Part shown: one piece after another, positions 16,119-57,456 of the stretch
How the letters are laid out: every line of letters begins with the position of its first letter
How positions within the stretch are numbered: position 1 is the stretch's first letter
NCBI GenBank assembly: GCA_013140635.1
Contig: JABFSM010000054.1
Span: 1 to 63,047 of the forward strand
Length of the DNA: 63,047 nucleotides
Direction: 5' to 3'
Source of the DNA: Gemmatimonadales bacterium
GTDB taxonomy: Bacteria > Gemmatimonadota > Gemmatimonadetes > Gemmatimonadales > GWC2-71-9
Position numbers and translations under genes: made by a program
The notes under the pieces: generated by a model
Seen by the model: only the letters and a program-made list of their open reading frames with translations
The model's database searches: none
Told to the model about the DNA's origin: nothing

Positions 16119-16134
16119 GGGCGTATTTTTTGCA
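16119..16134 (+). promoter_or_regulatory. Candidate sigma-54 (-24/-12) promoter for the Wzy/ligase-like gene
   Basis: gGGCGT-ATTTT-TTGCA, with GG at 16120-21 and GC at 16132-33 (canonical spacing). It lies ~50 nt upstream of the start at 16182. A 13-bp palindrome GTTTGTaACAAAC sits at 16085-16097. Confidence 0.45.
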
Positions 16135-16181
16135 GTTCCAGTGGGGTTCCGGCAGGTGGTCGACTTTGGGGGATTTGTGAT

Positions 16182-17645
16182 TTGCGGGGGACGATGACCA
16201 TAAGCGCGGTGTACGAAGCCGAGGCTTCGGCGGGCGCGGCGGAAGCCAAGAGCGGGTCGCTGACGTTGGTGAGGAACGGGCTGCAAGTTGCGCTCGCTCT
16301 GCTGACGATCATGACGATTAGCCGCGTTCACCAACAGTTCCCCGCGATTGCGAGCATTCGGCCGGCCATGGTGCTCACCTTCCTGGTGGCCATCTTTGCC
16401 TATCTGAATCCACGGCTGATCGTGCCGGACAGCCTGCTCACGACGTGGCCCGCGAAGGTGCTACGCTACCTCGTCATCTGGACATGTCTGTCGGTGGCAT
16501 TCGGCATCTCGATGGGCAACTCCGGTCAATACGTCATCACCACCTTCTCGAAAAACGTCATCTACGCCTTCCTGCTCGTGGCCGCGATTCGGAACGTTCG
16601 CGACCTCTACACCTTTGCCTGTGCCTATATCGCCGGGTCGCTGGTGCTCACCTTCAACTCACTCTTCGTTTTCAAGTTGGTGCACTATAGCGGCGACTTC
16701 AGCTACGCCCGCCTGAGCGATATGTATACCTGGGACGCGAACGACGTGGTGTGCGTCCTCATGGTGGCACTCGCGCTCTCGCTGTTGGTGCTGCAGGTGG
16801 GTGGGAAGTGGATGAAGGTCATGTCATTTCTGACGATCATCGGGATCGCCGGTACGGTCTCGCGGAGCGGGTCGCGAGGGGGTCTGGTCGGCATTCTGGT
16901 TGTCGGGCTCGCCGTCCTCCTGCTGGCGCGCGGCATTTCGGTGGTCAAGCGGGTCGCGGTGCTGGTGGTTTCGGCGGGAGCGCTCTTTGCCTGGGCGCCG
17001 CCGGGCTACTGGATGCAGATGGAGACCCTTCTCAAGCCGAAAGAGGACTACAACTACACGTCCAAGGACGGGCGTCGAGAGCTCTTCAATCGCGGAATCG
17101 GTTACATAGCGGCCTATCCGGTCTTCGGGCTGGGCATCAATAACTTCCCGAAGGCAGAGTGCGAGATTTCCGAGAAGGCCAAAATTGCCAGGCGGCAGAA
17201 CACCGGCCTGCGATGCACCCCGCCGCACAATTCGGTGATTCAGGCCGGCTCCGAAACCGGCATCCCCGGGCTCCTCCTCTGGGTCGGGCTCTTGATCTTC
17301 GGTTTCGGGCAGATGCTTTATCTCTCGTACACCTTGCCGAAGAGCTGGTTGAAGGGAACGCCGGAACAGCGGTTCCTCGCCCTCGCCCCCAGCTATCTCG
17401 CGATTGCGATCGTCGGTTTTGCGTCGACCGCCTTCTTCCTCAACTTCGCCTGGCTGGAGATCTACTACTTCATCGCCGCCATGATGGCGGGGTACCTCGC
17501 CTGCCTGGTGAGGTTCCGCAACGGGAGCGGGGCGTTGTCGCCCGTTCCGCACATCCTGCCGACGGGCGGGTCGGAGTGGCGAAGCCGGCGGGGCGGAAGC
17601 CCGGTCGCCGCACCGGTCGGCCGATTGTCCTCGCGGCGTTCCTGA
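16182..17645 (+). CDS. O-antigen ligase / Wzy-type polymerase-like polytopic membrane protein
   Basis: About 10-12 hydrophobic helices. Wzy_C-type loop SRSGSRGGLVGILVVGLAV plus a large periplasmic loop. The start could instead be the ATG at 16194. Confidence 0.8.
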   Translation: MRGTMTISAVYEAEASAGAAEAKSGSLTLVRNGLQVALALLTIMTISRVHQQFPAIASIRPAMVLTFLVAIFAYLNPRLIVPDSLLTTWPAKVLRYLVIWTCLSVAFGISMGNSGQYVITTFSKNVIYAFLLVAAIRNVRDLYTFACAYIAGSLVLTFNSLFVFKLVHYSGDFSYARLSDMYTWDANDVVCVLMVALALSLLVLQVGGKWMKVMSFLTIIGIAGTVSRSGSRGGLVGILVVGLAVLLLARGISVVKRVAVLVVSAGALFAWAPPGYWMQMETLLKPKEDYNYTSKDGRRELFNRGIGYIAAYPVFGLGINNFPKAECEISEKAKIARRQNTGLRCTPPHNSVIQAGSETGIPGLLLWVGLLIFGFGQMLYLSYTLPKSWLKGTPEQRFLALAPSYLAIAIVGFASTAFFLNFAWLEIYYFIAAMMAGYLACLVRFRNGSGALSPVPHILPTGGSEWRSRRGGSPVAAPVGRLSSRRS

Positions 17646-17661
17646 GACTGGGCCTCACGGC

Positions 17662-18864
17662 GTGACCGAGGCACCCCGCCGCTCGGTGCTCGTCACCGAC
17701 GGAAACGAGCGCGCCGCCTTGGCGAGTGTCCGCTCGCTTGGGAAGGCGGGCTTCGAGGTCGGGGTGCTGGCGGATCGTCGCTCGACCCTGGCGGGGGCAT
17801 CGCGGTATGCCGCGCGAAGCCACCTGGCGCCCTCACCCCTCGTCGAACCGGCCGCGTACGCGGACGCCGTTTGCGCCCTGGCCAAGGCGCACGGCTATCG
17901 CGTGGTGCTTCCGATGAGTGAAGCCGCTCACCTAGCGCTCTATCCGGTCGAATTCCGGCTTGCCCCCTGCCGGCTCGCGGCCGCTCCCGCCGACCGCTTT
18001 CAGGCGGTCTGCGACAAAGAGCAGGTCCTGCGGGAAGCGACCGCGCTCGGACTCTCCGTCCCCGCCCAGATCGTGCTTTCCTCGAGGCCGGGCCCCGAGT
18101 GGTCTCTCCCGGTCGACGCCCTGTTCCCGCTGGTGGTCAAGCCGGCCCGCTCGGTCGTCGGCACCACCTCGGCGCGCCGCAAGCTCGCGGTGCTCCACGC
18201 CGCGGACATGAACGAGCTCAAATCGTTGCTCGCGGGGCTGGCGGAGGCCGCCTATCCCGTGCTCCTGCAGCAACGCATTCCCGGGGAGGGCATTGGGGTG
18301 TTCCTGCTTATTTGGGAGGGTCGAGAGCTCGCGAACTTTGCTCACCGGCGTATTCGGGAGAAGCCGCCCGGGGGCGGCGTGAGCGTGGCGCGGGAGAGCG
18401 TGGCCCAGGACCCCGACTTGCTCGACCGGACCCGCGCGCTTTTTGCCCGCTTCGGCTGGAGCGGGCCCGGCATGCTGGAATTCAAGCGGGGCGCCGACGG
18501 AACGCCGTACGTCATGGAAATCAACGGCCGCCTCTGGGGCTCGCTCCAGCTTGCGATCGATGCCGGGGTGGACTTTCCCCGCTTGCTGGTCGAAGCGGTC
18601 CTCGGCGCGGCTCCGGCCCCGCCGCCACGTTATGAGGCCGGCGTCCGGACCCGGTGGTGGTGGGGCGATGTGGACCACCTCATCGCGAGGTTTCGACACC
18701 CGGAAGATGCGCGGCTCTTGCCGGCCGGCACGCCCGGGCCGCTCCGCACGGCGCTGGATGTTCTCCTCGACGGCTTCCGAGGCGCCAAAGGCGAGATCCT
18801 CCGCCTCTCCGATCCCGGGCCTTTCTTTCGGGAGTCGCTCGATTGGTTCCGGAGGGGCCGATGA
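17662..18864 (+). CDS. ATP-grasp domain protein (carboxylate-amine ligase-like)
   Basis: GTG start. Motifs: PLVVKPARSV..., VLLQQRIPGEGIGVFLL, GPGMLEFKRGADGTPYVMEINGRLWGS. Confidence 0.8.
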   Translation: MTEAPRRSVLVTDGNERAALASVRSLGKAGFEVGVLADRRSTLAGASRYAARSHLAPSPLVEPAAYADAVCALAKAHGYRVVLPMSEAAHLALYPVEFRLAPCRLAAAPADRFQAVCDKEQVLREATALGLSVPAQIVLSSRPGPEWSLPVDALFPLVVKPARSVVGTTSARRKLAVLHAADMNELKSLLAGLAEAAYPVLLQQRIPGEGIGVFLLIWEGRELANFAHRRIREKPPGGGVSVARESVAQDPDLLDRTRALFARFGWSGPGMLEFKRGADGTPYVMEINGRLWGSLQLAIDAGVDFPRLLVEAVLGAAPAPPPRYEAGVRTRWWWGDVDHLIARFRHPEDARLLPAGTPGPLRTALDVLLDGFRGAKGEILRLSDPGPFFRESLDWFRRGR

Positions 18865-24190: not shown

Positions 24191-24209
24191 GCACTACCTC
24201 CCTTCGGAC

Positions 24210-27564: not shown

Positions 27565-27580
27565 ATTCTGTTGTGGCAAA

Positions 27581-27595
27581 GCAAGATACATGCCG
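27581..27595 (-). promoter_or_regulatory. Candidate sigma-54 promoter facing wzm-wzt
   Basis: The minus strand reads CGGCAT-GTATC-TTGCT. The predicted TSS lies only ~5 nt before the ATG at 27564, so either the mRNA is nearly leaderless or a downstream GTG is the true start. Confidence 0.4.
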
Positions 27596-27683
27596 TTGAT
27601 TGCAGCGATTTGCACTCAATAATCGGGTCCCGGGTAGGGTCGAATTCTCGGGGATTTCCCCCGGGATGGCCCTGCCGGCCATT

Positions 27684-27699
27684 GGGCAGGAATCCTGCA
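27684..27699 (+). promoter_or_regulatory. Candidate sigma-54 promoter facing the methyltransferase gene
   Basis: gGGCAG-GAATC-CTGCA, with GG at 27685-86 and GC at 27697-98. It lies 55 nt upstream of the ATG at 27754. Confidence 0.4.
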
Positions 27700-29409: not shown

Positions 29410-29425
29410 CGGCATAGGGTTTGCT
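29410..29425 (+). promoter_or_regulatory. Candidate sigma-54 promoter for the PqqD-B2-NTase-ABC operon
   Basis: CGGCAT-AGGGT-TTGCT, with GG at 29411-12 and GC at 29423-24. It lies 46 nt upstream of the ATG at 29471. It shares the -24/-12 hexamers with the site at 27581-95. Confidence 0.55.
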
Positions 29426-31277: not shown

Positions 31278-33103
31278 AGGCGGGGATCACCGCCGGCCTC
31301 ACCCATTTTCGCTCGTTGCTCCGCGCGCATCCGCGCCTCGTCGTTCGCTTCGTCCTGACCTCCCTCGGCCGCTCCGCCGCCGGCCTCGGGACCATCCTCT
31401 TGACGCGCGACTTTCTTGCCGGGGTGCTCGACCGAAGCGCCGGGGCGGGAAGCGGTCCGGCGCTTTCCCTCTGGGGCATCGCCGGCCTCCTGTTCGCCTC
31501 GTTCCTCTTTTCGAGCCTGCTCGCCTTCGACAATCGCGTCACCCAGCAGCGAATGGTGAAGGTCTTGGAGCTCGGGATGATGGAGCGGGTGATCCGCCAT
31601 CTGCTGCGGCTCTCGGTGGCGTTCTTCGACCGGCAGAGCCACGGCGATCTGCTCCAGGCGGTGCGCCAGGACGTGATGGCGCTCCGGACCCTCGTCTTCG
31701 CGCTGGCGGGGATCACCCTCGAAGCGGTCGGCGCGCTGGGGCTCTTCCTGGCCGCGCTCTGGCTCAGCCCGCGCCTGACGCTCTGGGCGCTGGTCGTGCT
31801 TCCGCTCTGCAGCATCCCCGTCATCGTCGCGGCCCGCCGGGCTCTGGCCCGGTCTCGCGAGCTCCGCCGCACCGGCTACGTGCTGTTCGACGCGATTCTT
31901 CAGCTCCTTCGCGGCATCCGGATCATCAAGGTGTACGGGGGCGACGAGGCCGAAGCGCGCACCACGATGGAAAAGGGGCGTCGTTACTTCGACGAGCTCA
32001 TCGAGATGGTCCGGATCAGCTCATATGCCCAGGTCGTGCTGGAAACGATCGGCGGGCTCGGGCTTGTCATCGTGGTGGTGGTGGGCGGCTTCGACGTGAT
32101 GGCCGGCCGGCTCGACTGGCCCTCCCTGCTCGCCTTTCTCCTGGCGCTCCGCGCGCTCTTCGGACCGGTCAACAACATCAACAGCGGGCTGGTGGCGCTG
32201 GGCGGGTTGGGTGCCTCGGTTGAGCGGGTCTCCGAGCTCCTTGCCACGACACCCGAGGTTCCCGAAGCGGCGGATGCCGACCCCCTTCCTCTTCCCCCTG
32301 CTCTGATCTCCTTCGACCGAGTCGGTTTTGCGTACCGCAACGAGCCGGTGCTCCGGGATGTCTCTTTTTCGGTGCGGGCCGGCGAAACGCTCGGGATCGC
32401 CGGGCCTTCAGGATCGGGGAAGACGACGCTCCTCAACCTCGTCGCGCGTTTCTACGATCCGGCCGAGGGGGCGATACGGTTCGATGGGAAGAATCTGACG
32501 GAGATCCGGCTTGCCGACCTCTATGCCAACTTGGGTATCGTGACCCAGGAGCCCTTCCTTTTTGCCACGACGGTCCGCGAAAACATCCGCTGCGGACGCC
32601 CCGCCGCGGCGGATGGTGAGGTCGAGGAGGCCGCCCGCGCAGCGGGAATTCATGAGGAGATTCTCGCCTTGTCGGGAGGCTACGAGACGGTCGTCGGCGT
32701 TGGCGGCGTCGGGCTCTCCGGCGGCCAAGCCCAGCGAATCAACATCGCCCGCGCGCTGGTGAAGAACCCGCCGATCCTCCTCCTCGACGAGGCCACCGCG
32801 AGCCTCGACTCGATGTCCGAGCTCGTGGTGCAGCAGGCATTGGAGCGGCTCATGGTCGGTCGCACGACCTTCGTGGTGGCGCATCGCCTCTCAACGCTGC
32901 GCCATGCCTCTCGCATTCTGGTGCTGGAAGGAGGACGCATTGCCGGTCTCGGACCCCATGGTGAGCTCCTCGAGACCTGTCCCCTCTACCGGAGAATGTG
33001 GGACCTTCAGCAACTAGCGGGAATGGAGCCAGCCCCTATTGGGAATACTGTTGCACTTGTGCAGCAAATACCCGATTTTCCCCCTCAGATTGGACCCTCC
33101 TGA
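31259..33103 (+). CDS. ABC exporter, fused TMD-NBD half-transporter (MsbA/McjD-like)
   Basis: Six N-terminal helices. Walker A GPSGSGKTT, signature LSGGQAQR, Walker B ILLLDEATASLD. It overlaps the NTase stop. Confidence 0.85.
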   Translation: MARVAIKAGITAGLTHFRSLLRAHPRLVVRFVLTSLGRSAAGLGTILLTRDFLAGVLDRSAGAGSGPALSLWGIAGLLFASFLFSSLLAFDNRVTQQRMVKVLELGMMERVIRHLLRLSVAFFDRQSHGDLLQAVRQDVMALRTLVFALAGITLEAVGALGLFLAALWLSPRLTLWALVVLPLCSIPVIVAARRALARSRELRRTGYVLFDAILQLLRGIRIIKVYGGDEAEARTTMEKGRRYFDELIEMVRISSYAQVVLETIGGLGLVIVVVVGGFDVMAGRLDWPSLLAFLLALRALFGPVNNINSGLVALGGLGASVERVSELLATTPEVPEAADADPLPLPPALISFDRVGFAYRNEPVLRDVSFSVRAGETLGIAGPSGSGKTTLLNLVARFYDPAEGAIRFDGKNLTEIRLADLYANLGIVTQEPFLFATTVRENIRCGRPAAADGEVEEAARAAGIHEEILALSGGYETVVGVGGVGLSGGQAQRINIARALVKNPPILLLDEATASLDSMSELVVQQALERLMVGRTTFVVAHRLSTLRHASRILVLEGGRIAGLGPHGELLETCPLYRRMWDLQQLAGMEPAPIGNTVALVQQIPDFPPQIGPS

Positions 33104-33114: not shown

Positions 33115-33130
33115 TGGCAAGGTTCCTGCA
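33115..33130 (+). promoter_or_regulatory. Candidate sigma-54 promoter for the nucleotide-sugar operon
   Basis: TGGCAA-GGTTC-CTGCA(T). It lies 57 nt upstream of the ATG at 33187. A TGCACttGTGCA palindrome lies at 33052-33063. Confidence 0.55.
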
Positions 33131-38973: not shown

Positions 38974-38986
38974 CATTCCCCTACGG

Positions 38987-41387: not shown

Positions 41388-41402
41388 TGGCTCGGGGCTT
41401 GC
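41388..41402 (+). promoter_or_regulatory. Candidate sigma-54 promoter for the mini PEP-CTERM protein gene
   Basis: TGGCTC-GGGGC-TTGC(G), with GG at 41389-90 and GC at 41401-02. It lies 34 nt upstream of the ATG at 41436. Confidence 0.55.
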
Positions 41403-41435
41403 GGTGCCCATCCTAGTAATGGAATCTGGTCGCCA

Positions 41436-41660: not shown

Positions 41661-41666
41661 ATAACT

Positions 41667-41686
41667 GGGCGGCTTACCAGCCGCCC
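41667..41686. terminator. Hairpin between convergent genes (possible bidirectional terminator)
   Basis: GGGCGGCT, loop tacc, AGCCGCCC (8-bp GC stem). It overlaps the last codons of the minus-strand sugar transferase. The flanking T/A runs are poor. Confidence 0.4.
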
Positions 41687-42456: not shown

Positions 42457-42460
42457 TACC

Positions 42461-43294: not shown

Positions 43295-43374
43295 GGTTCG
43301 AGCAAAGAGCAGGGACTGTGCTTACGCCAAGGCCTCGCGATACTCGGTCTCAAGATCATGTGGGCCACCATATA

Positions 43375-43389
43375 GCGAGACTTGGGCCA
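43375..43389 (-). promoter_or_regulatory. Weaker sigma-54-like promoter candidate facing the wza-like operon
   Basis: The minus strand reads TGGCCC-AAGTC-TCGC(T). The GG/GC spacing is correct but the -12 element is TCGC rather than TTGC. It lies ~80 nt upstream of the ATG at 43294. Confidence 0.3.
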
Positions 43390-43807
43390 GCGTTACGAGG
43401 TCAAGAGGATACAAAAAGCGCGGCAACGTTGCATCAGTGCGTTGCGATGATGCTACAGCAGTGCTGTGTCGGTGTGACTATTGTGCCGTGACTTGGTCCT
43501 TAAGTCCAAGTAGCGCATATAATAAACAGGCTCCAGCTTCGGCAGAACATTTGCGGCAAGACTCACTGTCGAGCCGCACGCAGGTGGGTTCCGAAAGACC
43601 GGTTTCTTCCAGGGCCTACTGTGTAACTTATTCTGTAGCAATCAGTTATAGATCAACAACGAAACAGATGGTCTTGAGAGCAAGAAGCACGGAATCTCAG
43701 CATTCAGCGGTACGATGCCGTCCAAATGCAACATCTCAGTGCATCGGAACGTTGCAGGCTCTTGTCAGGTGCACGTTGACTCGCTTCTTCCCAGGTGGGC
43801 GGACTCA

Positions 43808-44677
43808 ATGGATGAAGGCTCCAGGCAGCCCAAGGTTCTGATCGCGAACGATCAGGAGTGGTCTGCCCGATCGCTGGAGAGCATTTTCGCGGGCGAGGAC
43901 TACGCCGTGATCCGTGCGTTTACCGGGCACCAGGCAATTCAAAAAGCGGCCGCTGCGCTTCCCGATGTCATCATCCTCGACCGGCAAATGCCGGATCTCG
44001 ATGGCGCGGAGGTCTGTCGCCGGCTGCGGGCCGACCCCCGCTTCGGCGCTACCACCCCGATCCTGATCACGACCGCAGGTCAGGCGGGCCGCGCTCAGCG
44101 CATCGAAGCGTTCCAGGCCGGTGCCTGGGACTTCATCGGCCAACCGATCGATGGCGAGGCAATCCTCTGCAAGGTGCGGACATTTCTCCAAGCGAAGCGA
44201 GCGGCGGAGCATCTGCAGACGGACACCATGGTGGATTCCACGACGGGTCTCTATACCCGCGAGGGGATGGCGCGGCGAGCCCGAGAGGTGGCCTCCGAGG
44301 CGACCCGGCATCATCAGTCGGTAGCCTGCGTCGTATTCACTCCGGATGTCCAGGTTCTTCAGGACGCGATTCACTCCATCGATGAAATCGCGAAGGGTGT
44401 CGCCCGATTCTTCAAAGAGTCCGGCCGAACCGCCGATGTGGTCGCTCGGCTCGGTCCGCTCGAGTTTGCGGTCATCGCTCCAACCACCTCCGCGGAGGGC
44501 GCGGCGCGGATGGTGGAGCGGATCGAGTCGGCGCTCACGGCTCAGTCTGACGGCGATGGGGGCCGCGTTCCGGTCCGGGCCGGATACTTCGCGGTCGCCG
44601 ACTTTGCCGACGAGCCCGTCGGGTTTGAAGAGATGATCGCCAAGGCCTTGGCCTCCGCCAAAGTCACGGCCGCTTAG
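43808..44677 (+). CDS. Response-regulator receiver fused to a degenerate GGDEF domain (A-site GPLEF, I-site RxxD retained)
   Basis: ATG at 43808. REC motif DVIILDRQMPDLDG. The GGDEF-like domain carries RTAD-VVARL-GPLEF (nt 44426-44467), which has the same spacing as RxxD-x5-GGDEF. Confidence 0.75.
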   Translation: MDEGSRQPKVLIANDQEWSARSLESIFAGEDYAVIRAFTGHQAIQKAAAALPDVIILDRQMPDLDGAEVCRRLRADPRFGATTPILITTAGQAGRAQRIEAFQAGAWDFIGQPIDGEAILCKVRTFLQAKRAAEHLQTDTMVDSTTGLYTREGMARRAREVASEATRHHQSVACVVFTPDVQVLQDAIHSIDEIAKGVARFFKESGRTADVVARLGPLEFAVIAPTTSAEGAARMVERIESALTAQSDGDGGRVPVRAGYFAVADFADEPVGFEEMIAKALASAKVTAA

Positions 44678-44692
44678 CGGGCGTTCCGCAGG

Positions 44693-47125
44693 TCAGGCCT
44701 TCGCGCCCTGCGTCAGCCCTTTCGGTTCTTCCTGGCCCTCGATCTCATCTTCCGCGGCATACCCGTAACTGTACGAGTAGTACTTGTAGGCGCCCGCACC
44801 GGCGTGAATGTGGTTGAGCACCGCGCCGAGAACGCGAACCGGCAAACGGTCGAGAATCCGCAACTTCGCCTCCGCCATCTGCCGGTCGGTCTCGCCGCTC
44901 CGAAGAACGATCAGCATGTTGCCGGTGTGGGTCCCCAAGACGAACGGATCGATGCCGGCACCCAGCGGCGGGCTGTCCACCAGCACGACTTCGTACTGAC
45001 TCTTGAGCCGCCCGATGAGTTCGGCCATCCTCGCCGAGCCGAGGAGCTCGGGGCCATGCTGCAGGCGAGTGCCGCACGGGATCATCGTCAAGTTCCGGTG
45101 CGACGTCGGCCGGAGGGTGGACTCGTACGAGACCTGCGGATTGCCCAGGTAGTCGAGCAAGCCGGGCCGCCGTTCCGCACCGAATGTCCGGTGGAGGTCG
45201 CCGCGCCGGGTATCGCCGTCGATCAGAATCGTGCGGTAGCCCGCCTCGGCGAACGAGAGCCCGAGGTTGGAGGAGATCAGCGACTTCCCATCGCCCGGAC
45301 TCGGGCTCGAAACCGTAATGCAAATCGGGCTGCCCGGCTCGAACGAGTGGGCCAGATTGAGCCGGATGGAGCGGAAGGCCTCGACCACTTGGGCCAGATG
45401 GTCGGAGGGGACCGCCTTGCCATTCCGGCTGCGCGGAATGGCGGGGACCGCGCCGAGAATCGTGAGCCCGAGCTCATGCGACGCCTGATCCGGATATCGG
45501 AAGCGGCGGTCCATACGGTCGAGCAGCACGGCGAGGCCAAGGCCGAGCCCCAGGCTGGCCAGGAACCCCATCGTGATGATCTTGGAGGCTTGGTTGCCCA
45601 GCGGCCGAGTCGGGACGGCGGCGTGGTCGAGTACGCTCACGTCGGGGATGGCGCTGATCTCGGCGAGCTTCGTCTCTTCGTATCGGCTCTGCAGGTTGAT
45701 ATACAAGATCTTCGCGCTCTCGAGCTCCCGTTCGAGCCGCCCTTCGGTGATCGTCCGGACCGGGATGCCCTTGAGCTCTTCGCCCGCGCTGTTGATGCGG
45801 GAGTCGAGGTCGCCTTCCTGGATGGCCAGCTGGCGCGCCAGCGCTCGGGCATACGCGGGAATGGTCGAGCTCCGCAGGGTGTTCACGCGGTCCTGCAGAT
45901 CCTTGACCCCCTTGAACTCGTCGGTGTACTTGGTCCGGAGCGCGCGAAGCTCCGCGTCGGCCACGGTGAGTTCGGCCAAGACTTTCGAAAGCTCGGGGGC
46001 GGAGCGGACCGAACTGATCGTCTGAAAGGCGTCGACGGCGATCTCGCCGCTGGTTAGGCGGCGGAGCACATCCTCGATGGCCCGGCGGTCGTTGCGCACC
46101 GTTTCGAGCTGGACCCGCTGGTCGAAGTACCGGCCGTAGGCCGTCTGCTCGGTCATCTGGAGGCCGGAGGCGACGGCGACGTTTTCGCGGGGCTGGGTGA
46201 TCGTCGCCACGCGGAACGAGGCGAGCCCCTGTTCGGCGGCGCGGAGGCGCTTTTCCTGTTGACTCACCTGGTCGGCGAGCAGGGAGGAGAGCTCGCGCAG
46301 TTTCTGCTTCTTCAAGTCCGCCGCGACCTTGAGGAACTGTTCCTGGATCGCTTGCATCGTCGAGGCCAGCAACTGCGGATCGGTGCCTTTGAGTTTGAGC
46401 TCCAGGAAGTTGCCGTTTTCCGTCGGCATGAACGGCTCCAGGTCTTCCTTGAGCTGGGCGGAGGCATCTCTCGGCGAAAGGAGGCTGAACGAAACCGACA
46501 TCCCCGCCGCCAGCTTCTGTGGCCCCGGCATCCATTTGAGCCCCGCCTCGCGGCCGACCGAGTCGGTGAGCGCGCCGGCGGAAAGCTGAAGTCCGCTGTT
46601 GTTCTTCAACGAGTAGCCCCGCCCGGAGTCATCGACCGACAGGATGTACTGGCCGGGCAGAAACCGTTCGGAGAGTTCGAGGTCGGCAAAGAGGTTCGGG
46701 GCCGCGCCTTGGCCGGGGAGCAGATAGAGCTTGAGCTTGTTGACGACCGGCTCGAGCACCGCATAGGACTTGAGGAGCTCTATCCAATTGGACGAGGAGA
46801 GCAGCTCGGGCGCTTGGATCGGACCGCCGTTCTGGGAGCGGTCGTTCTTGATATAGATGGTCCCGCTGACCTCGAATTCCTTCTCGATCATGCGCGTGGC
46901 AAGGACGCTGACCGTCGCTCCAGCCACTGTCACCAGCACGATCAACCAGGCAAACCGCCGGATCGCCGAGAAGATACGGAGGAACTTCCCGCTTCCCGGA
47001 TCGTCGAGGGCGGGGCCCAAGCCAGCCTGAGTCAACGCAGCCTGCGTTGGCGCATGGGGGGGGACTACCCGAGTCCCGACGTCAGATGGAGTGCTTGACT
47101 GACCGGGGATCAGCGAACCAGTCAT
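44693..47125 (-). CDS. wzc: Polysaccharide co-polymerase / BY-type tyrosine autokinase (Wzc/GumC-like)
   Basis: 810 aa with two TM helices flanking a coiled-coil periplasmic domain. Walker A SPSPGDGKS, A' ILIDGDTRRGD, Walker B VVLVDSPP. C-terminal Tyr cluster YKYYSYSYGY. SD AGAGGA precedes the ATG. Confidence 0.9.
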   Translation of the reverse strand: MTGSLIPGQSSTPSDVGTRVVPPHAPTQAALTQAGLGPALDDPGSGKFLRIFSAIRRFAWLIVLVTVAGATVSVLATRMIEKEFEVSGTIYIKNDRSQNGGPIQAPELLSSSNWIELLKSYAVLEPVVNKLKLYLLPGQGAAPNLFADLELSERFLPGQYILSVDDSGRGYSLKNNSGLQLSAGALTDSVGREAGLKWMPGPQKLAAGMSVSFSLLSPRDASAQLKEDLEPFMPTENGNFLELKLKGTDPQLLASTMQAIQEQFLKVAADLKKQKLRELSSLLADQVSQQEKRLRAAEQGLASFRVATITQPRENVAVASGLQMTEQTAYGRYFDQRVQLETVRNDRRAIEDVLRRLTSGEIAVDAFQTISSVRSAPELSKVLAELTVADAELRALRTKYTDEFKGVKDLQDRVNTLRSSTIPAYARALARQLAIQEGDLDSRINSAGEELKGIPVRTITEGRLERELESAKILYINLQSRYEETKLAEISAIPDVSVLDHAAVPTRPLGNQASKIITMGFLASLGLGLGLAVLLDRMDRRFRYPDQASHELGLTILGAVPAIPRSRNGKAVPSDHLAQVVEAFRSIRLNLAHSFEPGSPICITVSSPSPGDGKSLISSNLGLSFAEAGYRTILIDGDTRRGDLHRTFGAERRPGLLDYLGNPQVSYESTLRPTSHRNLTMIPCGTRLQHGPELLGSARMAELIGRLKSQYEVVLVDSPPLGAGIDPFVLGTHTGNMLIVLRSGETDRQMAEAKLRILDRLPVRVLGAVLNHIHAGAGAYKYYSYSYGYAAEDEIEGQEEPKGLTQGAKA

Positions 47126-47213
47126 CGGATCCTCTTATTCCTCGTGATTCCAGACCGTTGAATCGGGACGACCATGCGGTGGCATAGCTGCACCACCTCA
47201 TCCCACAACCCTA

Positions 47214-47230
47214 ATGCAAGGGCGGTACCG
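47214..47230 (-). promoter_or_regulatory. Candidate sigma-54 promoter facing wzc
   Basis: The minus strand reads CGGTAC-CGCCC-TTGCA(T). It lies ~90 nt upstream of the ATG at 47125. Confidence 0.4.
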
Positions 47231-47412
47231 CAACATAGCAATTCGACCGTCCCCCAGACAGGATGGGCTCTACCAGGACTTGCCGGCGAAGCGATGGACT
47301 TGATGTTGTATAATTCCTACACATGTATTGTATCTGTGCATCGAATTCGGTCTCTTGTATCGCCGTGCCGACGACGGTGCAGAATGCTCGTGGGCATTGT
47401 GTCTCATCTTTG

Positions 47413-47428
47413 CGGCATAGTTTTCGCT
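47413..47428 (+). promoter_or_regulatory. Candidate sigma-54 promoter facing the sigma-54 activator gene itself
   Basis: CGGCAT-AGTTT-TCGC(T), with GG at 47414-15 and GC at 47426-27. It lies 44 nt upstream of the ATG at 47472. Confidence 0.45.
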
Positions 47429-47471
47429 TTTGTTGTGGGCGTCCACTTACAACCTGATCGGCTCGGCGGCC

Positions 47472-49007
47472 ATGAGCAGTCCACTGGTTACGGATCCAAA
47501 CCGCTCCTACGCACCCGGAAGCGACAGCTCCGCGGCGCGCGATCCGCTTTCGATCCCCCCGGAGATCAAAGCCAGTATTCGGATTCTCCTGGTCGACGAC
47601 GAACGGACCCTTCGGGAGAGTTGCGCCAGCGTCCTTCAGATGGACGGCTTCTCGGTAACGCTGGCGGGGCGGGGTGAGGAGGCGGTCGACCTCCTCAAGA
47701 ATCGGAAGTTCGACATCATGCTGGTCGACCTGTATATGTCGCAGGTTTCCGGCCTCGAGTTGCTGCGGGCCGCGCTCGATTCCAATCGAGACATCATCGT
47801 GGTCGTCATGACCGGCAATCCCAGCGTGTCGACCAGCATCGAAGCGCTCCGTGCCGGCGCCTGGGACTACCTTCCGAAGCCGTTCTCGGCGACCCATCTC
47901 CAGGTCTTGATCGGCCGAGCATCGCACGCGGTCATGGTCAATCGCGAAGCCAGCGAGCTTCGCCAGCGGGTTCTTCAGCAGCACAGCCACAGCGATACTC
48001 TGACCCTCATCGGCATTTCACCGCCATTCCGGAAGGCAGTCGAGTTGGCGCGGAAGGTGGCCCTGACCGACGCGAGCGTCTTCATCAGCGGGGAAAGCGG
48101 AACCGGCAAAGAAGTCATTGCCCAGTTCATTCACCAGCACAGCCGCCGGTCGCGCAAGCCGCTCGTGGCCATCAACTGCGCGGCGCTTCCGGAACCGCTC
48201 CTGGAATCGGAGATGTTCGGCCACCGGAAGGGCTCCTTTACCGGCGCCGATCGTGATAAGCCCGGCCTGCTCGAGACCGCGAATGGCGGCTCCTTTTTCC
48301 TGGACGAGCTCACCGAAATGCCGCTGGCGTTGCAGGCTAAGTTGCTGCGAGTCATTCAAGACGGTGTCGTGCGCCGAGTCGGCTCCGAGTCGACCGACGC
48401 CCAAATCGACGTCCGCTTCATTTCCGCCACCAACCGCGATCCGCAGCAGGCGGTGGATAGCGGCGTGCTTCGCGGCGACTTGTTCTACCGGCTCCGCGTG
48501 GTGCCGATTGCCCTACCGCCGCTTCGGAAGCGCCAAGAGGACATTCCGCTCTTGGCCAATCACTTCCTCACCTACTATTGGCACCGGCACCGCCAGATGC
48601 CCGACCGGTGTCCGCGGCTCAGCGAGGAGAGCATCGCCTTCCTCAAGTCGCGCCCGTGGCGCGGCAATGTGCGGGAGCTGCAGAACGTCATCGAGCACAC
48701 GACGGTCCTGATGGATCCGGATCAAGTGATCCAGCCGGGCGACATCCCGCTCTACGAGGACGGCGCCGGCGAACCCGCGGTGGAGGCTCGGCCGGTTCCG
48801 ACACCGATGGGGAACGAACCGTATCATGTGGCGAAGGACCGAGTCGTGGCCGATTTCGAGAAGCAGTACCTTACGGCGCTGGTCGAGCGCGCCGCGGGCA
48901 ACATGTCGAAGGCGGCGCGGCTTGCGGGGGTCGACCGTACCACGCTCTATCGTTTGATCGACAAGCACCAGTTGCTGCGGGCCGACGGTGAAGGATCGGT
49001 CGAGTGA
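47472..49007 (+). CDS. NtrC-family sigma-54-dependent response regulator (REC-AAA+-HTH; candidate PEP-CTERM-box regulator, PrsR-like)
   Basis: REC motif ILLVDDERTLRE...DIMLVDLYM. AAA+ motifs GESGTGKEV, FFLDELTEM and ESEMFGHRKGSFTGA (GAFTGA variant). HTH motif NMSKAARLAGVDRTTLYRLI. Confidence 0.85.
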   Translation: MSSPLVTDPNRSYAPGSDSSAARDPLSIPPEIKASIRILLVDDERTLRESCASVLQMDGFSVTLAGRGEEAVDLLKNRKFDIMLVDLYMSQVSGLELLRAALDSNRDIIVVVMTGNPSVSTSIEALRAGAWDYLPKPFSATHLQVLIGRASHAVMVNREASELRQRVLQQHSHSDTLTLIGISPPFRKAVELARKVALTDASVFISGESGTGKEVIAQFIHQHSRRSRKPLVAINCAALPEPLLESEMFGHRKGSFTGADRDKPGLLETANGGSFFLDELTEMPLALQAKLLRVIQDGVVRRVGSESTDAQIDVRFISATNRDPQQAVDSGVLRGDLFYRLRVVPIALPPLRKRQEDIPLLANHFLTYYWHRHRQMPDRCPRLSEESIAFLKSRPWRGNVRELQNVIEHTTVLMDPDQVIQPGDIPLYEDGAGEPAVEARPVPTPMGNEPYHVAKDRVVADFEKQYLTALVERAAGNMSKAARLAGVDRTTLYRLIDKHQLLRADGEGSVE

Positions 49008-50086
49008 GCGCTCCGACCGAGGTTGAAACGGGACTGGTGGAGGCTCTGGAGGCGGCCTGCCGGCAAGTACCGGCGGAGTCCGGCGGCGCGCTGCTCGCCG
49101 ATGCCGCCTCGAGCGAAGAAGTCTCCGCGCTGGTGGGCGTTATTTCTTCCGGGGTACTGGCCCACCTTCGCGGCGAGGCGATGCCTGCGTTGCCCCGGAC
49201 CCATCTGGCCCGCCGCATCCTGCAAAGCTTCCGCAAACACTATCTCGAAGGCGCGGCCGCTCAGTCGCCCCCGGCGTCGAGCGCCACCCTCTTGGCCGGC
49301 CTCGGGTCGATCGAAGCGGTGGCGGCGGCGCTCGAGGGAGACTGGCGCCAGCGGTTCAGCGACCGTCTCTCCGGTCCCGACGGCCTCGAGTTGGTCGTCG
49401 AGGTGGCGCACGATCTTCGCTCCCCGTTGACCTCGATTCTCTTCCTGGCGGAGACGCTGCGCCGCGGGCGAAGCGGCCCGCTGACGCCGCTTCAGGAGCG
49501 CCAGCTCGGGTTGATCTATGCGGCGGCGTTCGGGCTTACCTCGGTGGCCAGCGACGTCATCGAGCTCGCGCGCGGCGGCGAACGCCAGGTCGATCTCGAT
49601 CCGCTCCCATTCTCGGTCGCCGATATTCTCGAGTCGGTGCGCGACATCGTCCAGCCGATTGCCGAGGAGAAGGGCCTCGAGGTGCAGCTGGTCTCGAACG
49701 AAGAGGGGCTCCGGGTCGGACACCCTGTGGCCCTGAGCCGGGTGCTGCTCAACCTGACCACGAACGCCCTCAAGTTCACCGATGAGGGCAACGTCGAGAT
49801 GCGGGCCGAGCCCCTTGCCGACACCCGGCTCGAATTTTCGGTGCGGGACACGGGGCGGGGCATTCCTCCGAATTCGATGGCGATGCTCTTCGAGCCTTTC
49901 CGGCGGCGGCAGCGAGATCGGGAGTATGCGTTCTCCGGGTCGGGGCTCGGCCTCTCGATTTGCCGGAAATTGGTGGAGGCGATGGGGTCCGAGCTCAAGG
50001 TGGAAACCGAGGCGGGGAAAGGCACTACCTTCTCGTTCGTGTTGGCGCTTCCCCGGGTCAATCCGGAGGATGGACAGCTCAGCTGA
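49004..50086 (+). CDS. Soluble sensor histidine kinase (HisKA + HATPase_c, no TM segment)
   Basis: GTGA overlap with the regulator gene. H-box VAHDLRSPLTSI, N-box LLNLTTNALKFT, G-boxes VRDTGRGIP and GSGLGLSICRKLV. Confidence 0.85.
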   Translation: MSAPTEVETGLVEALEAACRQVPAESGGALLADAASSEEVSALVGVISSGVLAHLRGEAMPALPRTHLARRILQSFRKHYLEGAAAQSPPASSATLLAGLGSIEAVAAALEGDWRQRFSDRLSGPDGLELVVEVAHDLRSPLTSILFLAETLRRGRSGPLTPLQERQLGLIYAAAFGLTSVASDVIELARGGERQVDLDPLPFSVADILESVRDIVQPIAEEKGLEVQLVSNEEGLRVGHPVALSRVLLNLTTNALKFTDEGNVEMRAEPLADTRLEFSVRDTGRGIPPNSMAMLFEPFRRRQRDREYAFSGSGLGLSICRKLVEAMGSELKVETEAGKGTTFSFVLALPRVNPEDGQLS

Positions 50087-54855: not shown

Positions 54856-54898
54856 CCGCTCGCTCCGGAATAGTATATATAGATTCCGAGACATCGGT

Positions 54899-54913
54899 GC
54901 AACAAGCGTACCG
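54899..54913 (-). promoter_or_regulatory. Candidate sigma-54 promoter facing the oxidoreductase/GT-like pair
   Basis: The minus strand reads CGGTAC-GCTTG-TTGC(AC). It has the same -24 hexamer as the wzc site. It lies ~45 nt upstream of the ATG at 54855, which argues against the longer 54894 start. Confidence 0.45.
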
Positions 54914-57009: not shown

Positions 57010-57160
57010 TGGCGGTCTGGTCTGTCTCCGAGGAAGGAAGCTTCGACGTCGAATACATACTATGCAAAGACAGCGCCGGGTACCTTGCGGCCCCGGCGCC
57101 ATCCTCCCAGCACGTGCAGTCAGAATCGCGAGATCGAGTCTCCGGACTCGCGCCGGTGCG

Positions 57161-57313
57161 TTAGCACCAGCCGAAGTACCGGTACAACCAATTGCACTCG
57201 GGCGCTTGCGTCTGGCTGGTCTCACCCCCGCCCGACACGAGCGTCTGCGTCAGCACCGCCAACGCCGCTTCCTCGTGCAGGACCGGTTCAACAAACTGCC
57301 GCTTCTGCCGCAT
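57161..57313 (-). CDS. 50-aa candidate RiPP precursor peptide (lasso-type leader signature)
   Basis: I translated MRQKRQFVEPVLHEEAALAVLTQTLVSGGGETSQTQAPECNWLYRYFGWC* myself. The Shine-Dalgarno is strong (GGAGGAAGAACC-ATG). 42 of 49 third positions are G/C, matching coding DNA here. It lies directly upstream of, and co-directional with, the HprK-like gene. Confidence 0.6.
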   Translation of the reverse strand: MRQKRQFVEPVLHEEAALAVLTQTLVSGGGETSQTQAPECNWLYRYFGWC

Positions 57314-57441
57314 GGTTCTTCCTCCAGTCCGGGGTTCCCAAGGGGATGGGTTCGTTCCTTGAGCCATCGGTGCCCCCTGGTAGTGCCACCGTCAGACGCT
57401 GTGCGAAGTCGTGCGAACCCAGCGATGGCTCCCATCAAAGG

Positions 57442-57456
57442 GCAAGTTGCAAGCCG
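57442..57456 (-). promoter_or_regulatory. Candidate sigma-54 promoter facing the precursor-like ORF
   Basis: The minus strand reads CGGCTT-GCAAC-TTGC(C) with correct GG/GC spacing. It lies ~130 nt upstream of the ATG at 57313. Confidence 0.4.

What the first reader, a model, noticed from the sequence alone, without database searches (positions are those of the whole stretch)
16119..57456. Island-wide set of -24/-12 (sigma-54-type) promoter candidates, including one upstream of the activator gene itself
Seen in sequence: I found eleven intergenic matches with exact GG-N10-GC spacing and TGGCAC/TTGC-like flanks. All face the adjacent gene at plausible 5'-UTR distances. They are 16119 (gGGCGT-N5-TTGCA), 27581(-) (CGGCAT-N5-TTGCT), 27684 (gGGCAG-N5-CTGCA) and 29410 (CGGCAT-N5-TTGCT). 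Also 33115 (TGGCAA-N5-CTGCA), 41388 (TGGCTC-N5-TTGCG), 43375(-) (TGGCCC-N5-TCGCT) and 47214(-) (CGGTAC-N5-TTGCA). Also 47413 (CGGCAT-N5-TCGCT), 54899(-) (CGGTAC-N5-TTGCA) and 57442(-) (CGGCTT-N5-TTGCC). The hexamer CGGCAT recurs three times and CGGTAC twice. The window also encodes an NtrC-family activator with an intact GAFTGA-type loop (GSFTGA). Established knowledge: PEP-CTERM/exosortase loci are associated with a PrsK/PrsR sigma-54-dependent two-component system. Inference: almost every transcription unit of the island would be one sigma-54 regulon, including the RiPP-like genes, the mini PEP-CTERM protein and the regulator. I have not computed a background expectation.
Basis: partly seen in the sequence, partly recalled or inferred. 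Interest (0 to 1): 0.6.

Follow-up and report, generated by a model that had tools for sequence, protein, structure and literature searches.

The report
Sigma-54 regulon of polysaccharide island
In this uncultured soil bacterium (Gemmatimonadales), most operons of a large slime-polysaccharide gene island carry sigma-54-type promoters, and several also carry a conserved docking site for the activator protein encoded in the island; this is a well-supported but conventional kind of genetic switch.

Summary
All eleven -24/-12 candidates exist (coordinates within 1 nt), and I found two more (43540+, 57063-). They exceed chance. The island's 3.4 kb of intergenic DNA holds 13 PWM hits against 1.3-1.8 expected (P about 2e-9). 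The excess disappears when the spacing is shifted by one base. rpoN is present with an intact RpoN box, and the local regulator is a REC-AAA+-HTH activator with a GSFTGA loop.

Three sites (wzc 47215-, regulator 47413+, GGDEF receiver 43540+) are conserved islands in otherwise diverged intergenic DNA across 11-74 Gemmatimonadales genomes. Between the divergent wzc and regulator promoters lies a conserved palindrome, TGTTGC-N6-GCAACA, about 70-90 nt from each -24 box. Similar palindromes sit upstream of 43540/43374, 33115 and 16119, weakly upstream of 41388, and at a second glycan cluster on contig C201.

Five sites (27580, 29410, 54898, 57063, 57441) lack this palindrome. Three weak sites (27684, 41388, 43374) are doubtful.

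The PrsK/PrsR-exosortase frame does not apply: no exosortase was found, and both PrsK and PrsR models score below cut-off. The closest working analogue is the Vibrio fischeri syp/SypG locus.

Earlier follow-ups of this scan reported the same regulon and palindrome in other Gemmatimonadota genomes.

The parts
47215..47230 (-). sigma-54 -24/-12 promoter of wzc (CGGTACCGCCCTTGCA). The predicted start site is about 79 nt before ATG 47125.
   Evidence: 10.1 bits. GG and TTGCA are invariant in 11 genus genomes while the surroundings diverge: 0.83 of genomes share the window's base in the box against 0.40 elsewhere. The consensus CGGTAY-N5-TTGCA appears in 41 of 74 Gemmatimonadales loci, and in 38 of the 47 loci that have a divergent wzc.
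47413..47428 (+). sigma-54 promoter of the activator-kinase operon (CGGCATAGTTTTCGCT), implying autoregulation. The leader to ATG 47472 is about 33 nt.
   Evidence: 13.2 bits. GCGGCA.A.TTTCGC is invariant in 11 genus genomes (0.89 base sharing). 50 of 74 loci have a GG-N10-GC site >=9 bits within 170 nt of the activator start.
47304..47321 (.). Enhancer-like palindrome TGTTGTATAATTCCTACA, 73 nt from the wzc -24 box and 91 nt from the activator -24 box.
   Evidence: TGT-N12-ACA (TGTTGC-N6-GCAACA) occurs between the two promoters in 31 of 41 loci against 0.8 in shuffles. The window's site scores 18.0 bits under the PWM built from those other genomes.
43540..43555 (+). sigma-54 promoter facing the REC-GGDEF gene (CGGCAGAACATTTGCG). 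The leader is about 242 nt.
   Evidence: 11.0 bits. GG...TTGC is invariant in all 14 aligned genus genomes. A palindrome lies 82 nt upstream.
43440..43457 (.). Enhancer-like palindrome CGTTGCGATGATGCTACA between 43374(-) and 43540(+), next to the GCAACGTTGC half-sites.
   Evidence: 14.8 bits. The null frequency of >=12 bits upstream of 3057 gene starts is 0.29%. TGTTGC..CAACA-like blocks sit at the same place in the genus alignment.
43374..43389 (-). Weak candidate promoter before wza (TGGCCCAAGTCTCGCT).
   Evidence: 10.2 bits. Conserved in only 3 of 14 genus genomes. It shares the 43440 palindrome, 50 nt away. Doubtful.
33115..33130 (+). Candidate promoter of the sugar-nucleotide/glycosyltransferase operon 33187-41253 (TGGCAAGGTTCCTGCA).
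   Evidence: 15.7 bits. A palindrome at 33049-33066 scores 14.2 bits, 48 nt upstream. No close orthologous region was available, and distant orthologues carry a sigma-70-like promoter instead.
33049..33066 (.). Enhancer-like palindrome TGTTGCACTTGTGCAGCA, inside the 3' end of the ABC exporter gene.
   Evidence: 14.2 bits.
16119..16134 (+). Candidate promoter of the Wzy_C/ATP-grasp/GT4 operon (GGGCGTATTTTTTGCA).
   Evidence: 12.3 bits. The leader to ATG 16194 is about 49 nt. The perfect palindrome TGTAAC-N6-GTTACA at 16088-16105 scores 12.2 bits but lies only 13 nt upstream.
16088..16105 (.). Palindrome TGTAACAAACGAGTTACA.
   Evidence: 12.2 bits. It is unusually close to the -24 box.
27580..27595 (-). 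Candidate promoter of the wzm-wzt-GT operon (CGGCATGTATCTTGCT).
   Evidence: 17.2 bits, the best score in the whole genome. No palindrome lies upstream. The upstream regions of wzm in relatives cannot be aligned. The leader to ATG 27564 is only about 5 nt.
27684..27699 (+). Weak candidate before the methyltransferase gene (GGGCAGGAATCCTGCA).
   Evidence: 10.9 bits. The only upstream 'palindrome' hit overlaps the 27580 promoter itself. Uncertain.
29410..29425 (+). Candidate promoter of the PqqD-B2-nucleotidyltransferase-ABC operon (CGGCATAGGGTTTGCT).
   Evidence: 14.5 bits. The leader is 35 nt. No palindrome lies upstream. In relatives this operon directly follows the HprK-like gene with no intergenic gap.
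41388..41403 (+). Weak candidate before the 75-aa PEP-CTERM-like ORF 41433-41660 (TGGCTCGGGGCTTGCG).
   Evidence: 10.4 bits. A weak palindrome at 41265-41282 scores 9.8 bits, 105 nt upstream. In G015, the only genome with the same small ORF, the box at the equivalent place is TAGCAC...CTGCT (AG instead of GG), with a 12.4-bit palindrome 132 nt upstream.
54898..54913 (-). Candidate promoter of the FAD-oxidoreductase/GT-like operon (CGGTACGCTTGTTGCA).
   Evidence: 14.1 bits. No palindrome and no comparators.
57063..57078 (-). Weak candidate before the HprK-like kinase gene (CGGCGCTGTCTTTGCA).
   Evidence: 10.3 bits. No palindrome.
57441..57456 (-). Weak candidate before the RiPP-like precursor ORF (CGGCTTGCAACTTGCC).
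   Evidence: 9.9 bits. In G041, CGGAACGAGAGTTGCG lies about 95 nt upstream of a homologous precursor. No palindrome.
47472..49007 (+). NtrC-family response-regulator activator (REC, sigma-54 AAA+, AAA lid, HTH_8) with a GSFTGA loop.
   Evidence: Orthologues align from the ATG at 47472.
49004..50086 (+). Histidine kinase (HisKA + HATPase_c) in the same operon as the activator.
   Evidence: It lies downstream of the activator in 71 of 74 loci.
44693..47125 (-). Wzc-like BY-kinase / chain-length co-polymerase.
43808..44677 (+). REC-GGDEF response regulator.

Best explanation
The stretch from 16 to 57 kb is an extracellular-polysaccharide island of a Gemmatimonadales bacterium. Most of its operons are transcribed by sigma-54 RNA polymerase. 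Its conserved core is wza/priming GT, REC-GGDEF, wzc, and the activator-kinase pair. I propose the following mechanism. The locus-encoded NtrC-family response regulator (47472-49007) is phosphorylated by the kinase in its own operon. It then assembles on palindromes of the type TGTTGC-N6-GCAACA, which lie roughly 50-105 nt upstream of the -24 boxes. By DNA looping it contacts sigma-54 holoenzyme that is already bound in closed complex at CGGYAY-N5-YTGCW promoters. It uses ATP hydrolysis, through the GSFTGA loop, to open those promoters. One central palindrome serves two divergent promoters, wzc and the activator's own operon, so the system is positively autoregulated. The same module drives the REC-GGDEF gene, the sugar-nucleotide/glycosyltransferase operon (33115), probably the Wzy_C operon (16119), and a second glycan cluster on contig C201. 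The strong -24/-12 sites that lack the palindrome (27580, 29410, 54898) are probably real sigma-54 promoters served by a distant site or by another of the roughly 10 activators. One or two of the 10-bit sites are expected to be chance. Shown here: the motifs, their enrichment, the spacing specificity, their conservation, the geometry, and the presence of rpoN and the activator. Inferred: which protein binds the palindrome, phosphorylation control, start sites, and the actual sigma-54 dependence.
For: Enrichment: 13 against 1.8 (shuffles) or 1.33 (rest of genome), P = 2e-9, top hot spot of the genome. Spacing-specific excess: 11 against 2.9, with none at N-1 or N+1. rpoN scores 423 bits against a cut-off of 277 and carries ARRTVAKYR. 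The activator has REC + Sigma54_activat + HTH_8 and a GSFTGA loop. Footprints: the wzc and activator boxes are conserved (0.83 and 0.89 base sharing) within intergenic DNA that is otherwise 0.40 shared, across 11 genomes. CGGTAY-N5-TTGCA, with a variable spacer, appears in 40 distinct sequences among 74 loci and tracks the presence of wzc, 38 of 47 against 3 of 27. The 43540 box is invariant in 14 genomes. Enhancer: TGT-N12-ACA in 31 of 41 loci against 0.8 in shuffles, at about 70-86 nt and about 70 nt from the two -24 boxes. In the window, palindrome hits >=12 bits lie upstream of 7 of 13 sites against a null of 0.29%. The independent new instances are 43440, 33049 and 16088. Palindrome-plus-promoter pairs recur before other EPS operons in G015, G017, G033, G029 and G025 and at C201:1707/1800 in a GT2/methyltransferase cluster. 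No sigma-70 consensus promoter was found in 41200-47500, 0 against 1.0 expected.
Against: The promoter PWM came from my memory of the published consensus. Genome-wide, the intergenic excess over shuffles is modest (142 against 97; 24 against 15 at >=13 bits), so a single site's score is weak evidence. Five sites have no palindrome. Exact k-mer and dyad searches across the island's upstream regions found no shared motif. Site 43374 is poorly conserved. The counterpart of 41388 in G015 has AG in place of GG. The palindrome at 16088 is only 13 nt from the -24 box, and the one at 33049 only 48 nt, both closer than the conserved spacing of about 70-90 nt. The activator promoter has TCGC rather than TTGC at -12. 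The variable part of the island has no close orthologous regions, so 6-7 sites could not be tested by conservation.
Confidence: 0.75

Rival explanations
1. The sites are real sigma-54 promoters but not one regulon. The local activator controls only the palindrome-bearing core (wzc, itself, GGDEF, 33115, perhaps 16119 and 41388). The RiPP-like cassettes, wzm-wzt and the 54898 operon answer to other activators.
For: There is no palindrome >=6 bits within 160 nt upstream of 27580, 29410, 54898, 57063 or 57441. About 10 PF00158 activators are encoded in the genome. No shared k-mer or dyad was found across all upstream regions.
Against: Enhancers can lie further away or downstream. I scanned only 10-160 nt upstream, with a PWM built from a single control region. 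All these sites share the lineage-typical CGGYAY form of the -24 box.
Confidence: 0.4
2. The matches are chance occurrences in AT-richer intergenic DNA, picked out by eye.
For: The bare GG-N10-GC pattern is at background. Genome-wide, shuffles yield 97 of the 142 intergenic hits. The six sites of about 10-11 bits are individually unremarkable.
Against: None of 300 shuffles reaches the observed count in the window. P = 2e-9 against the rest of the genome. The excess vanishes at spacing +/-1. Three sites are conserved footprints across up to 74 genomes. The sites co-occur with an independently derived palindrome.
Confidence: 0.03
3. The conserved GG...TTGC boxes are binding sites for some other DNA-binding protein or alternative sigma factor, and not for sigma-54.
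For: There is no experimental start site. The activator box has a non-canonical TCGC. One clade has TTAC at -12 before the activator gene.
Against: The bipartite structure has an invariant GG and TTGC exactly 10 nt apart and a free spacer. It has a fixed orientation towards the gene and sits next to a sigma-54 activator gene. An enhancer-like palindrome lies about 70-90 nt upstream. All of this is the textbook sigma-54 arrangement.
Confidence: 0.05

Closest known systems
Vibrio fischeri syp locus with the response-regulator activator SypG (PMC10162802, citing Yip 2005 and Ray 2013)
   Same: A polysaccharide locus encodes its own REC-AAA+-HTH sigma-54 activator. All operons of the locus depend on sigma-54 and that activator through a locus-specific enhancer. 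A phosphorelay controls the activator.
   Different: Different phylum, and no orthology was shown: the LuxO/SypG-like NCBIfam model scores 356 bits against a cut-off of 800. Here the activator promoter itself is sigma-54-type and shares one enhancer with the divergent wzc. The enhancer sequence is TGTTGC-N6-GCAACA. The partner is a simple HisKA kinase in the same operon. Nothing has been tested experimentally.
PrsK/PrsR/sigma-54 control of PEP-CTERM/exosortase EPS loci (Haft 2006, PMC1569441; RpoN-dependent pepA with a mapped TGGCAC/CTGCTT promoter, PMC9850573)
   Same: An NtrC-family two-component system plus sigma-54 promoters inside an EPS locus. The island's glycosyltransferases resemble XrtA-associated families at sub-threshold scores. 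One small PEP-CTERM-like ORF is present.
   Different: The defining proteins were not found. No exosortase was detected, and both the PrsR and PrsK models score below cut-off. The small ORF has PGP in place of PEP and matches no PEP-CTERM model.
Myxococcus xanthus EpsI/Nla24, an NtrC-like activator of the eps locus (PMC4877007), and the general finding that sigma-54 controls the cell exterior (Francke 2011, PMC3162934)
   Same: An activator of the sigma-54 type is encoded in or controls a Wzx/Wzy-Wzc-Wza type EPS locus. c-di-GMP-related proteins are part of the circuit.
   Different: No c-di-GMP binding by this activator is indicated. The promoter and enhancer architecture was worked out here only by comparative genomics.
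Earlier follow-ups of this scan on other Gemmatimonadota genomes (e1-2319380, e1-2351525)
   Same: The same kind of locus, the same palindrome (TGTnGC-N6-GCnACA) in the BY-kinase/activator divergent region, and sigma-54 promoters before many operons.
   Different: Those loci were reported to include exosortase genes, which I did not find in this genome. The palindrome was derived here independently, before those notes were read.

Membership tests
sigma-54 (-24/-12) promoters | GG and GC exactly 10 nt apart, with TGGCAC/TTGCW-like flanks | tested here: met
   All 13 sites. Scores are 9.9-17.2 bits.
sigma-54 (-24/-12) promoters | More frequent than background, spacing-specific, intergenic and facing genes | tested here: met
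   13 against 1.3-1.8 expected. No excess at spacing +/-1. In co-directional gaps, 5 hits face the gene and 1 does not.
sigma-54 (-24/-12) promoters | rpoN present with its DNA-binding RpoN box | tested here: met
   C39:3701-5323 scores 423 bits against a cut-off of 277 and carries ARRTVAKYR.
sigma-54 (-24/-12) promoters | A cognate activator with a GAFTGA-type loop | tested here: met
   GSFTGA within the PF00158 domain. Francke 2011 (PMC3162934) lists Ser at position 2 of the loop as occurring in LevR.
sigma-54 (-24/-12) promoters | Conservation of the boxes in orthologous control regions | tested here: inconclusive
   Met for 47215, 47413 and 43540. Poor for 43374. There is a single supporting analogue for 57441 and a single AG-variant analogue for 41388. 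Seven sites have no comparable regions.
sigma-54 (-24/-12) promoters | Transcription start 10-14 nt downstream of the GC, dependent on rpoN | not testable with these tools
The organism is an uncultured MAG.
PrsK/PrsR - PEP-CTERM/exosortase regulon | PrsR equivalog (TIGR02915 >= 502.6 bits) | tested here: not met
   The local activator scores 360 bits. The best score in the genome is 389.
PrsK/PrsR - PEP-CTERM/exosortase regulon | PrsK equivalog (TIGR02916 >= 300 bits) | tested here: not met
   The local kinase scores 55.6 bits. The best score in the genome is 90.7.
PrsK/PrsR - PEP-CTERM/exosortase regulon | An exosortase (EpsH/XrtA) in the genome | tested here: not met
   PF09721 gives 0 matches in the 93%-complete assembly. 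Absence from an incomplete MAG is not proof.
PrsK/PrsR - PEP-CTERM/exosortase regulon | PEP-CTERM cargo proteins behind the promoters | tested here: inconclusive
   There is one 75-aa ORF with a signal peptide, a TPGP motif, a TM helix and RRRRHH. It has no Pfam hit. An orthologue with TTPGP occurs in G015.
syp/SypG-type locus-encoded activator regulon (works-like comparison) | A locus-encoded REC-type activator plus a shared enhancer upstream of several sigma-54 promoters of one EPS locus | tested here: met
   Palindromes lie at 47304, 43440, 33049 and 16088, and weakly at 41265, upstream of 7-8 of the 13 sites. The same modules occur in relatives.
syp/SypG-type locus-encoded activator regulon (works-like comparison) | Orthology to SypG or to the syp genes | tested here: not met
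   The LuxO-type model NF041946 scores 356 bits against a cut-off of 800. The island's gene content is Wzc/Wza/Wzm-Wzt/GT4 and not syp-like.

The most novel reading that the evidence does not exclude
The cyclase-less, lasso-like peptide cassette forms one operon in relatives: precursor, HprK-like kinase, PqqD, B2 protease, nucleotidyltransferase and ABC exporter. In this genome it has been split into two pieces 27 kb apart. Each piece carries its own -24/-12 promoter (57441/57063 and 29410). This would mean that a modified secreted peptide is obligatorily co-expressed with the polysaccharide under sigma-54, possibly through a second activator. The peptide could be a matrix-associated factor or a signal feeding back on the island's kinase.
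Probability: 0.2. Interest if true: 0.6.

Novelty: new member of a known kind. Interest (0 to 1): 0.4.

Why it matters
Gemmatimonadota are abundant in soil and wastewater yet almost unstudied genetically. This analysis gives a concrete, testable wiring diagram for how they switch on slime and capsule production. It names the promoters (CGGYAY-N5-YTGCW), the likely activator site (TGTTGC-N6-GCAACA), a positive autoregulatory loop, and the target operons. It also corrects the annotation frame, because this is not a PrsK/PrsR-exosortase system. The principle of sigma-54 plus a locus-encoded activator controlling an EPS locus is already established (the syp locus, PrsR, EpsI, Francke 2011). The same regulon was already reported by this scan in other Gemmatimonadota genomes. 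The value is therefore confirmatory and practical, not conceptual.

Tried and rejected
(1) The bare GG-N10-GC count is uninformative in 66% GC DNA.
(2) Exact 7-8-mer and palindromic-dyad searches across the island's own upstream regions found no shared motif. The enhancer emerged only from the 41-genome comparison.
(3) Footprinting of the wzm promoter failed because the upstream regions in 10 relatives cannot be aligned. Some carry TCGCAT-N5-TTGCT, with CG in place of GG.
(4) Orthologues of gene 33187 exist only in other genera, and two of them carry a sigma-70-like TTGCAC-N16-TACAAT promoter.
(5) The region downstream of the priming GT holds the mini PEP-CTERM ORF in only one other genome, G015.
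(7) A sigma-70 consensus scan of 41200-47500 found nothing, 0 against 1.0 expected. This is only weak negative information.
(8) I considered whether the sites are copies of a repeat. Their flanks share no sequence, so I rejected that.

Full report
CONTEXT. The window is contig C65 of a 3.82-Mb, 349-contig, 93%-complete assembly with 66% GC. Close relatives of its activator protein all come from MAGs labelled Gemmatimonadales or Gemmatimonadota. No gene finder was on hand, so I called genes with a codon-usage caller trained on the genome's own long ORFs. It gave 3588 genes and 91% coding.

NCBIfam and Pfam searches show that 16-57 kb is an extracellular-polysaccharide island. It holds:
- a Wzy_C/O-antigen-ligase-like gene, an ATP-grasp gene and several GT4 genes;
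- Wzm/Wzt ABC export genes, a methyltransferase and a low-molecular-weight tyrosine phosphatase;
- a PqqD/B2/NTP_transf_5/ABC cassette;
- sugar-nucleotide enzymes, plus GT4 and GT2 genes;
- a priming phosphoglycosyl transferase and a Wza-like exporter;
- a REC-GGDEF protein and a Wzc-like BY-kinase;
- an NtrC-family activator with a histidine kinase;
- further on, a GT-like/FAD-oxidoreductase pair, an HprK-like kinase and a small precursor-like ORF.

THE OBSERVATION. All eleven sites are present with exact GG-N10-GC spacing. The minus-strand coordinates are off by one. The counts of CGGCAT (three) and CGGTAC (two) are correct. I scored them with a 16-position matrix written from my memory of the published consensus (YTGGCACG-N4-TTGCW, Barrios 1999). 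This matrix is my own knowledge and not a tool result. The sites score 9.9-17.2 of a possible 22.4 bits. Site 27580(-) is the best-scoring site in the whole genome.

The scan added four further intergenic hits:
- 43540(+), 11.0 bits;
- 57063(-), 10.3 bits;
- 55869(+), which lacks the GC and faces no gene;
- 29312(+), 9.1 bits.

Each of the 13 retained sites faces a start codon. The predicted leaders are 5-242 nt. For 27580(-), the first in-frame ATG of wzm would leave only about 5 nt of leader.

IS IT MORE THAN CHANCE? The bare GG-N10-GC pattern is at background (1391 against 1338 +/- 32). The full motif is not.
- The window's 4.5 kb of intergenic DNA holds 13 hits >=9.9 bits against 1.8 +/- 1.3 in 300 dinucleotide-preserving shuffles. 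None of the 300 reaches 13.
- Against the rate in all other intergenic DNA of the genome, the island (3.45 kb intergenic) has 13 against 1.33 expected, P = 2e-9. It is the top 40-kb hot spot of the assembly.
- Coding DNA in the window has the same hit density as coding DNA elsewhere (0.24 against 0.21 per kb).
- A regex that does not use my weights (YGG-N8-YYGCW) gives 11 against 2.9 expected (P = 2e-4). The same regex with the spacer one base shorter or longer gives 2 against 2.8 and 3 against 2.9.

The excess is therefore real and spacing-specific. About 1-2 of the 13 sites are expected to be chance. Genome-wide, the intergenic excess over shuffles is modest (142 against 97), so a single 10-bit site proves little on its own.

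THE MACHINERY. rpoN is present at C39:3701-5323. It matches TIGR02395 over its full length at 423 bits against a cut-off of 277, and it carries the RpoN box ARRTVAKYR. About ten PF00158 activators are encoded in the genome. The island's activator (47472-49007) has REC, Sigma54_activat, AAA-lid and HTH_8 domains and a GSFTGA loop. Orthologues align from the ATG at 47472.

PHYLOGENETIC FOOTPRINTS. Orthologues of the activator occur in all 24 genus genomes searched (81-87% identity) and in other families of the order at 56-71%. The block priming-GT(-)/wza(-)/REC-GGDEF(+)/wzc(-)/activator(+)/kinase(+) is conserved in most of the six relatives examined, from the genus and two other families of the order. 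The glycosyltransferase part of the island varies.

A MAFFT alignment of the wzc-activator intergenic region from 11 genus genomes is largely diverged. On average, 0.40 of genomes share the window's base.

I then examined 74 Gemmatimonadales loci whose activators are 72-85% identical to this one.
- 41 loci carry NGGYHY-N5-YTGC on the strand facing away from the activator, in 40 distinct sequences. The consensus is C-GG-T-A-Y-N5-TTGC-A. GG and TTGC are invariant, while the spacer and flanks vary. The median position is 266 nt upstream of the activator start.
- The element tracks the presence of a divergent wzc: 38 of 47 loci with wzc have it, against 3 of 27 without.
- 50 of 74 loci have a GG-N10-GC site >=9 bits within 170 nt of the activator start, in several sequence variants: CGGCAC..TCGCC, TGGTAT..ATGCW and TGGCGC..TTGCT.

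THE ENHANCER. Among the 41 loci, the dyad TGT-N12-ACA occurs between the two divergent promoters in 31, against 0.8 in shuffles. The full motif is the palindrome TGTTGC-N6-GCAACA. It typically lies 70-86 nt from the wzc -24 box and about 70 nt from the activator -24 box. The window's copy is at 47304-47321, 73 and 91 nt from the two boxes.

I built a symmetrised matrix from those other genomes and scanned the window.
- 47304 scores 18.0 bits.
- 43440 scores 14.8 bits. It is 82 nt upstream of 43540(+) and 50 nt from 43374(-).
- 33049 scores 14.2 bits, 48 nt upstream of 33115.
- 16088 scores 12.2 bits, 13 nt upstream of 16119.
- 41265 scores 9.8 bits, 105 nt upstream of 41388.
- A hit at 27569 overlaps the 27580 promoter and is not counted.

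The null comes from pseudo-promoters placed 60 nt upstream of 3057 other gene starts. A score >=12 bits occurs in 0.29% of them.

No palindrome lies upstream of 27580, 29410, 54898, 57063 or 57441. Elsewhere in the genome, the only other strong pair is on contig C201. There a 16.6-bit promoter (TGGCATTTCCCTTGCT) has a 17.8-bit palindrome 75 nt upstream. It sits in the divergent region of another GT2/methyltransferase/GT4 glycan cluster.

In the EPS islands of relatives, palindrome-plus-promoter pairs recur before other operons. Examples are a second divergent pair around one palindrome in G033 and a pair before the priming GT in G025. This is the classical enhancer/sigma-54 architecture. It supports autoregulation of the activator and control of several operons by it.

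WHAT COULD NOT BE TESTED. The variable part of the island has no close orthologous control regions.
- The wzm upstream regions of 10 relatives cannot be aligned.
- Orthologues of 33187 occur only in other genera, and two of them carry a sigma-70-like TTGCAC-N16-TACAAT promoter.
- The mini PEP-CTERM-like ORF exists in only one other genome, where the corresponding box has AG in place of GG.
- In relatives, the PqqD cassette directly follows the HprK-like gene. The promoter at 29410 is therefore specific to this genome's rearranged arrangement.
- In G041, a homologous precursor (MAQKKRFVEPSLHEEAPLATLTQ...) has CGGAACGAGAGTTGCG about 95 nt upstream. This is a single supporting analogue for 57441.

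COMPARISON WITH KNOWN SYSTEMS.
- TIGR02915 scores 360 bits against a cut-off of 502.6.
- TIGR02916 scores 56 bits against a cut-off of 300.
- No PF09721 exosortase was found in the genome.

Functionally, the closest described system is the Vibrio fischeri syp locus. There the locus-encoded response-regulator activator SypG and sigma-54 drive all four operons (PMC10162802). Further analogues are PrsR/RpoN control of PEP-CTERM genes (PMC1569441, PMC9850573), EpsI/Nla24 in Myxococcus (PMC4877007), and the general link between sigma-54 and the cell exterior (PMC3162934). No paper on sigma-54 regulons in Gemmatimonadota turned up in the held library.

After finishing my analysis I found that earlier follow-ups of this scan had reported the same regulon and the same palindrome (TGTnGC-N6-GCnACA) in other Gemmatimonadota genomes.

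VERDICT. Three promoters and the enhancer are solid on comparative evidence. Five more sites (33115, 27580, 29410, 54898, 16119) are probable. Five (27684, 41388, 43374, 57063, 57441) are weak. 'One regulon' is shown only for the palindrome-bearing subset. This is a new member of a known kind of system.

Noticed in passing
window 56056-57367(-) and 29471-33103(+); L086-L090: In relatives (G004, G014, G041) the HprK-like kinase gene ends immediately before PqqD-B2-nucleotidyltransferase-ABC, forming one operon. In this genome the precursor and kinase lie 27 kb from the rest. The G041 precursor shares the leader K(K/R)xFVEPxLHEEAxLAxLTQ..VSGG but has a different core. No lasso cyclase was seen.
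   Followed up: partly
window 43308-43322: The palindrome AGCAC-N5-GTGCT lies about 20 nt upstream of the wza ATG. GCA...GTGCT is invariant in 14 genus genomes. On the minus strand it reads like a -24/-12 box with AG in place of GG. Its function is unknown; it could be a second regulator site or a 5'-UTR element.
   Followed up: no
window 43716-43747: A conserved TGTGTG-N5-TTGCAACA-like box lies 40-90 nt upstream of the GGDEF start codon. That places it downstream of the conserved 43540 promoter, inside the predicted 242-nt leader. It resembles the enhancer palindrome (10.5 bits at 43716).
   Followed up: partly
genome contig C201:1707-1815: A second glycan cluster (GT2, methyltransferase-like, GT2, GT4) has a 16.6-bit -24/-12 site with a 17.8-bit enhancer palindrome 75 nt upstream. 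It is probably part of the same regulon, and the contig may be physically close to the island.
   Followed up: partly
window 41433-41660; L052: A 75-aa ORF has a signal peptide, a TPGP motif, a TM helix and RRRRHH (PEP-CTERM-like, with PGP). It has one orthologue (TTPGP...RRKKKQKAV) in G015, yet no exosortase (PF09721) was detected in this 93%-complete genome.
   Followed up: partly
window 27562-27615: The start of wzm is ambiguous. The longest ORF (GTG 27615) would contain the 17.2-bit promoter. ATG 27564 leaves about a 5-nt leader, which would make the transcript nearly leaderless.
   Followed up: no
L071, L072 (orthologues of gene 33187 in other genera): These orthologues carry a conserved sigma-70-like TTGCAC-N16-TACAAT upstream, in place of a -24/-12 box. 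The same sugar-nucleotide gene therefore sits under different promoter classes in different lineages.
   Followed up: no
L108, L113, L120, L123, L130, L143, L150, L157: In one clade, the box before the activator gene reads TGGTAAAAACGTTACT, with TTAC in place of TTGC at -12. These loci also lack the CGGTAY wzc box, which suggests a rewired variant of the control region.
   Followed up: no
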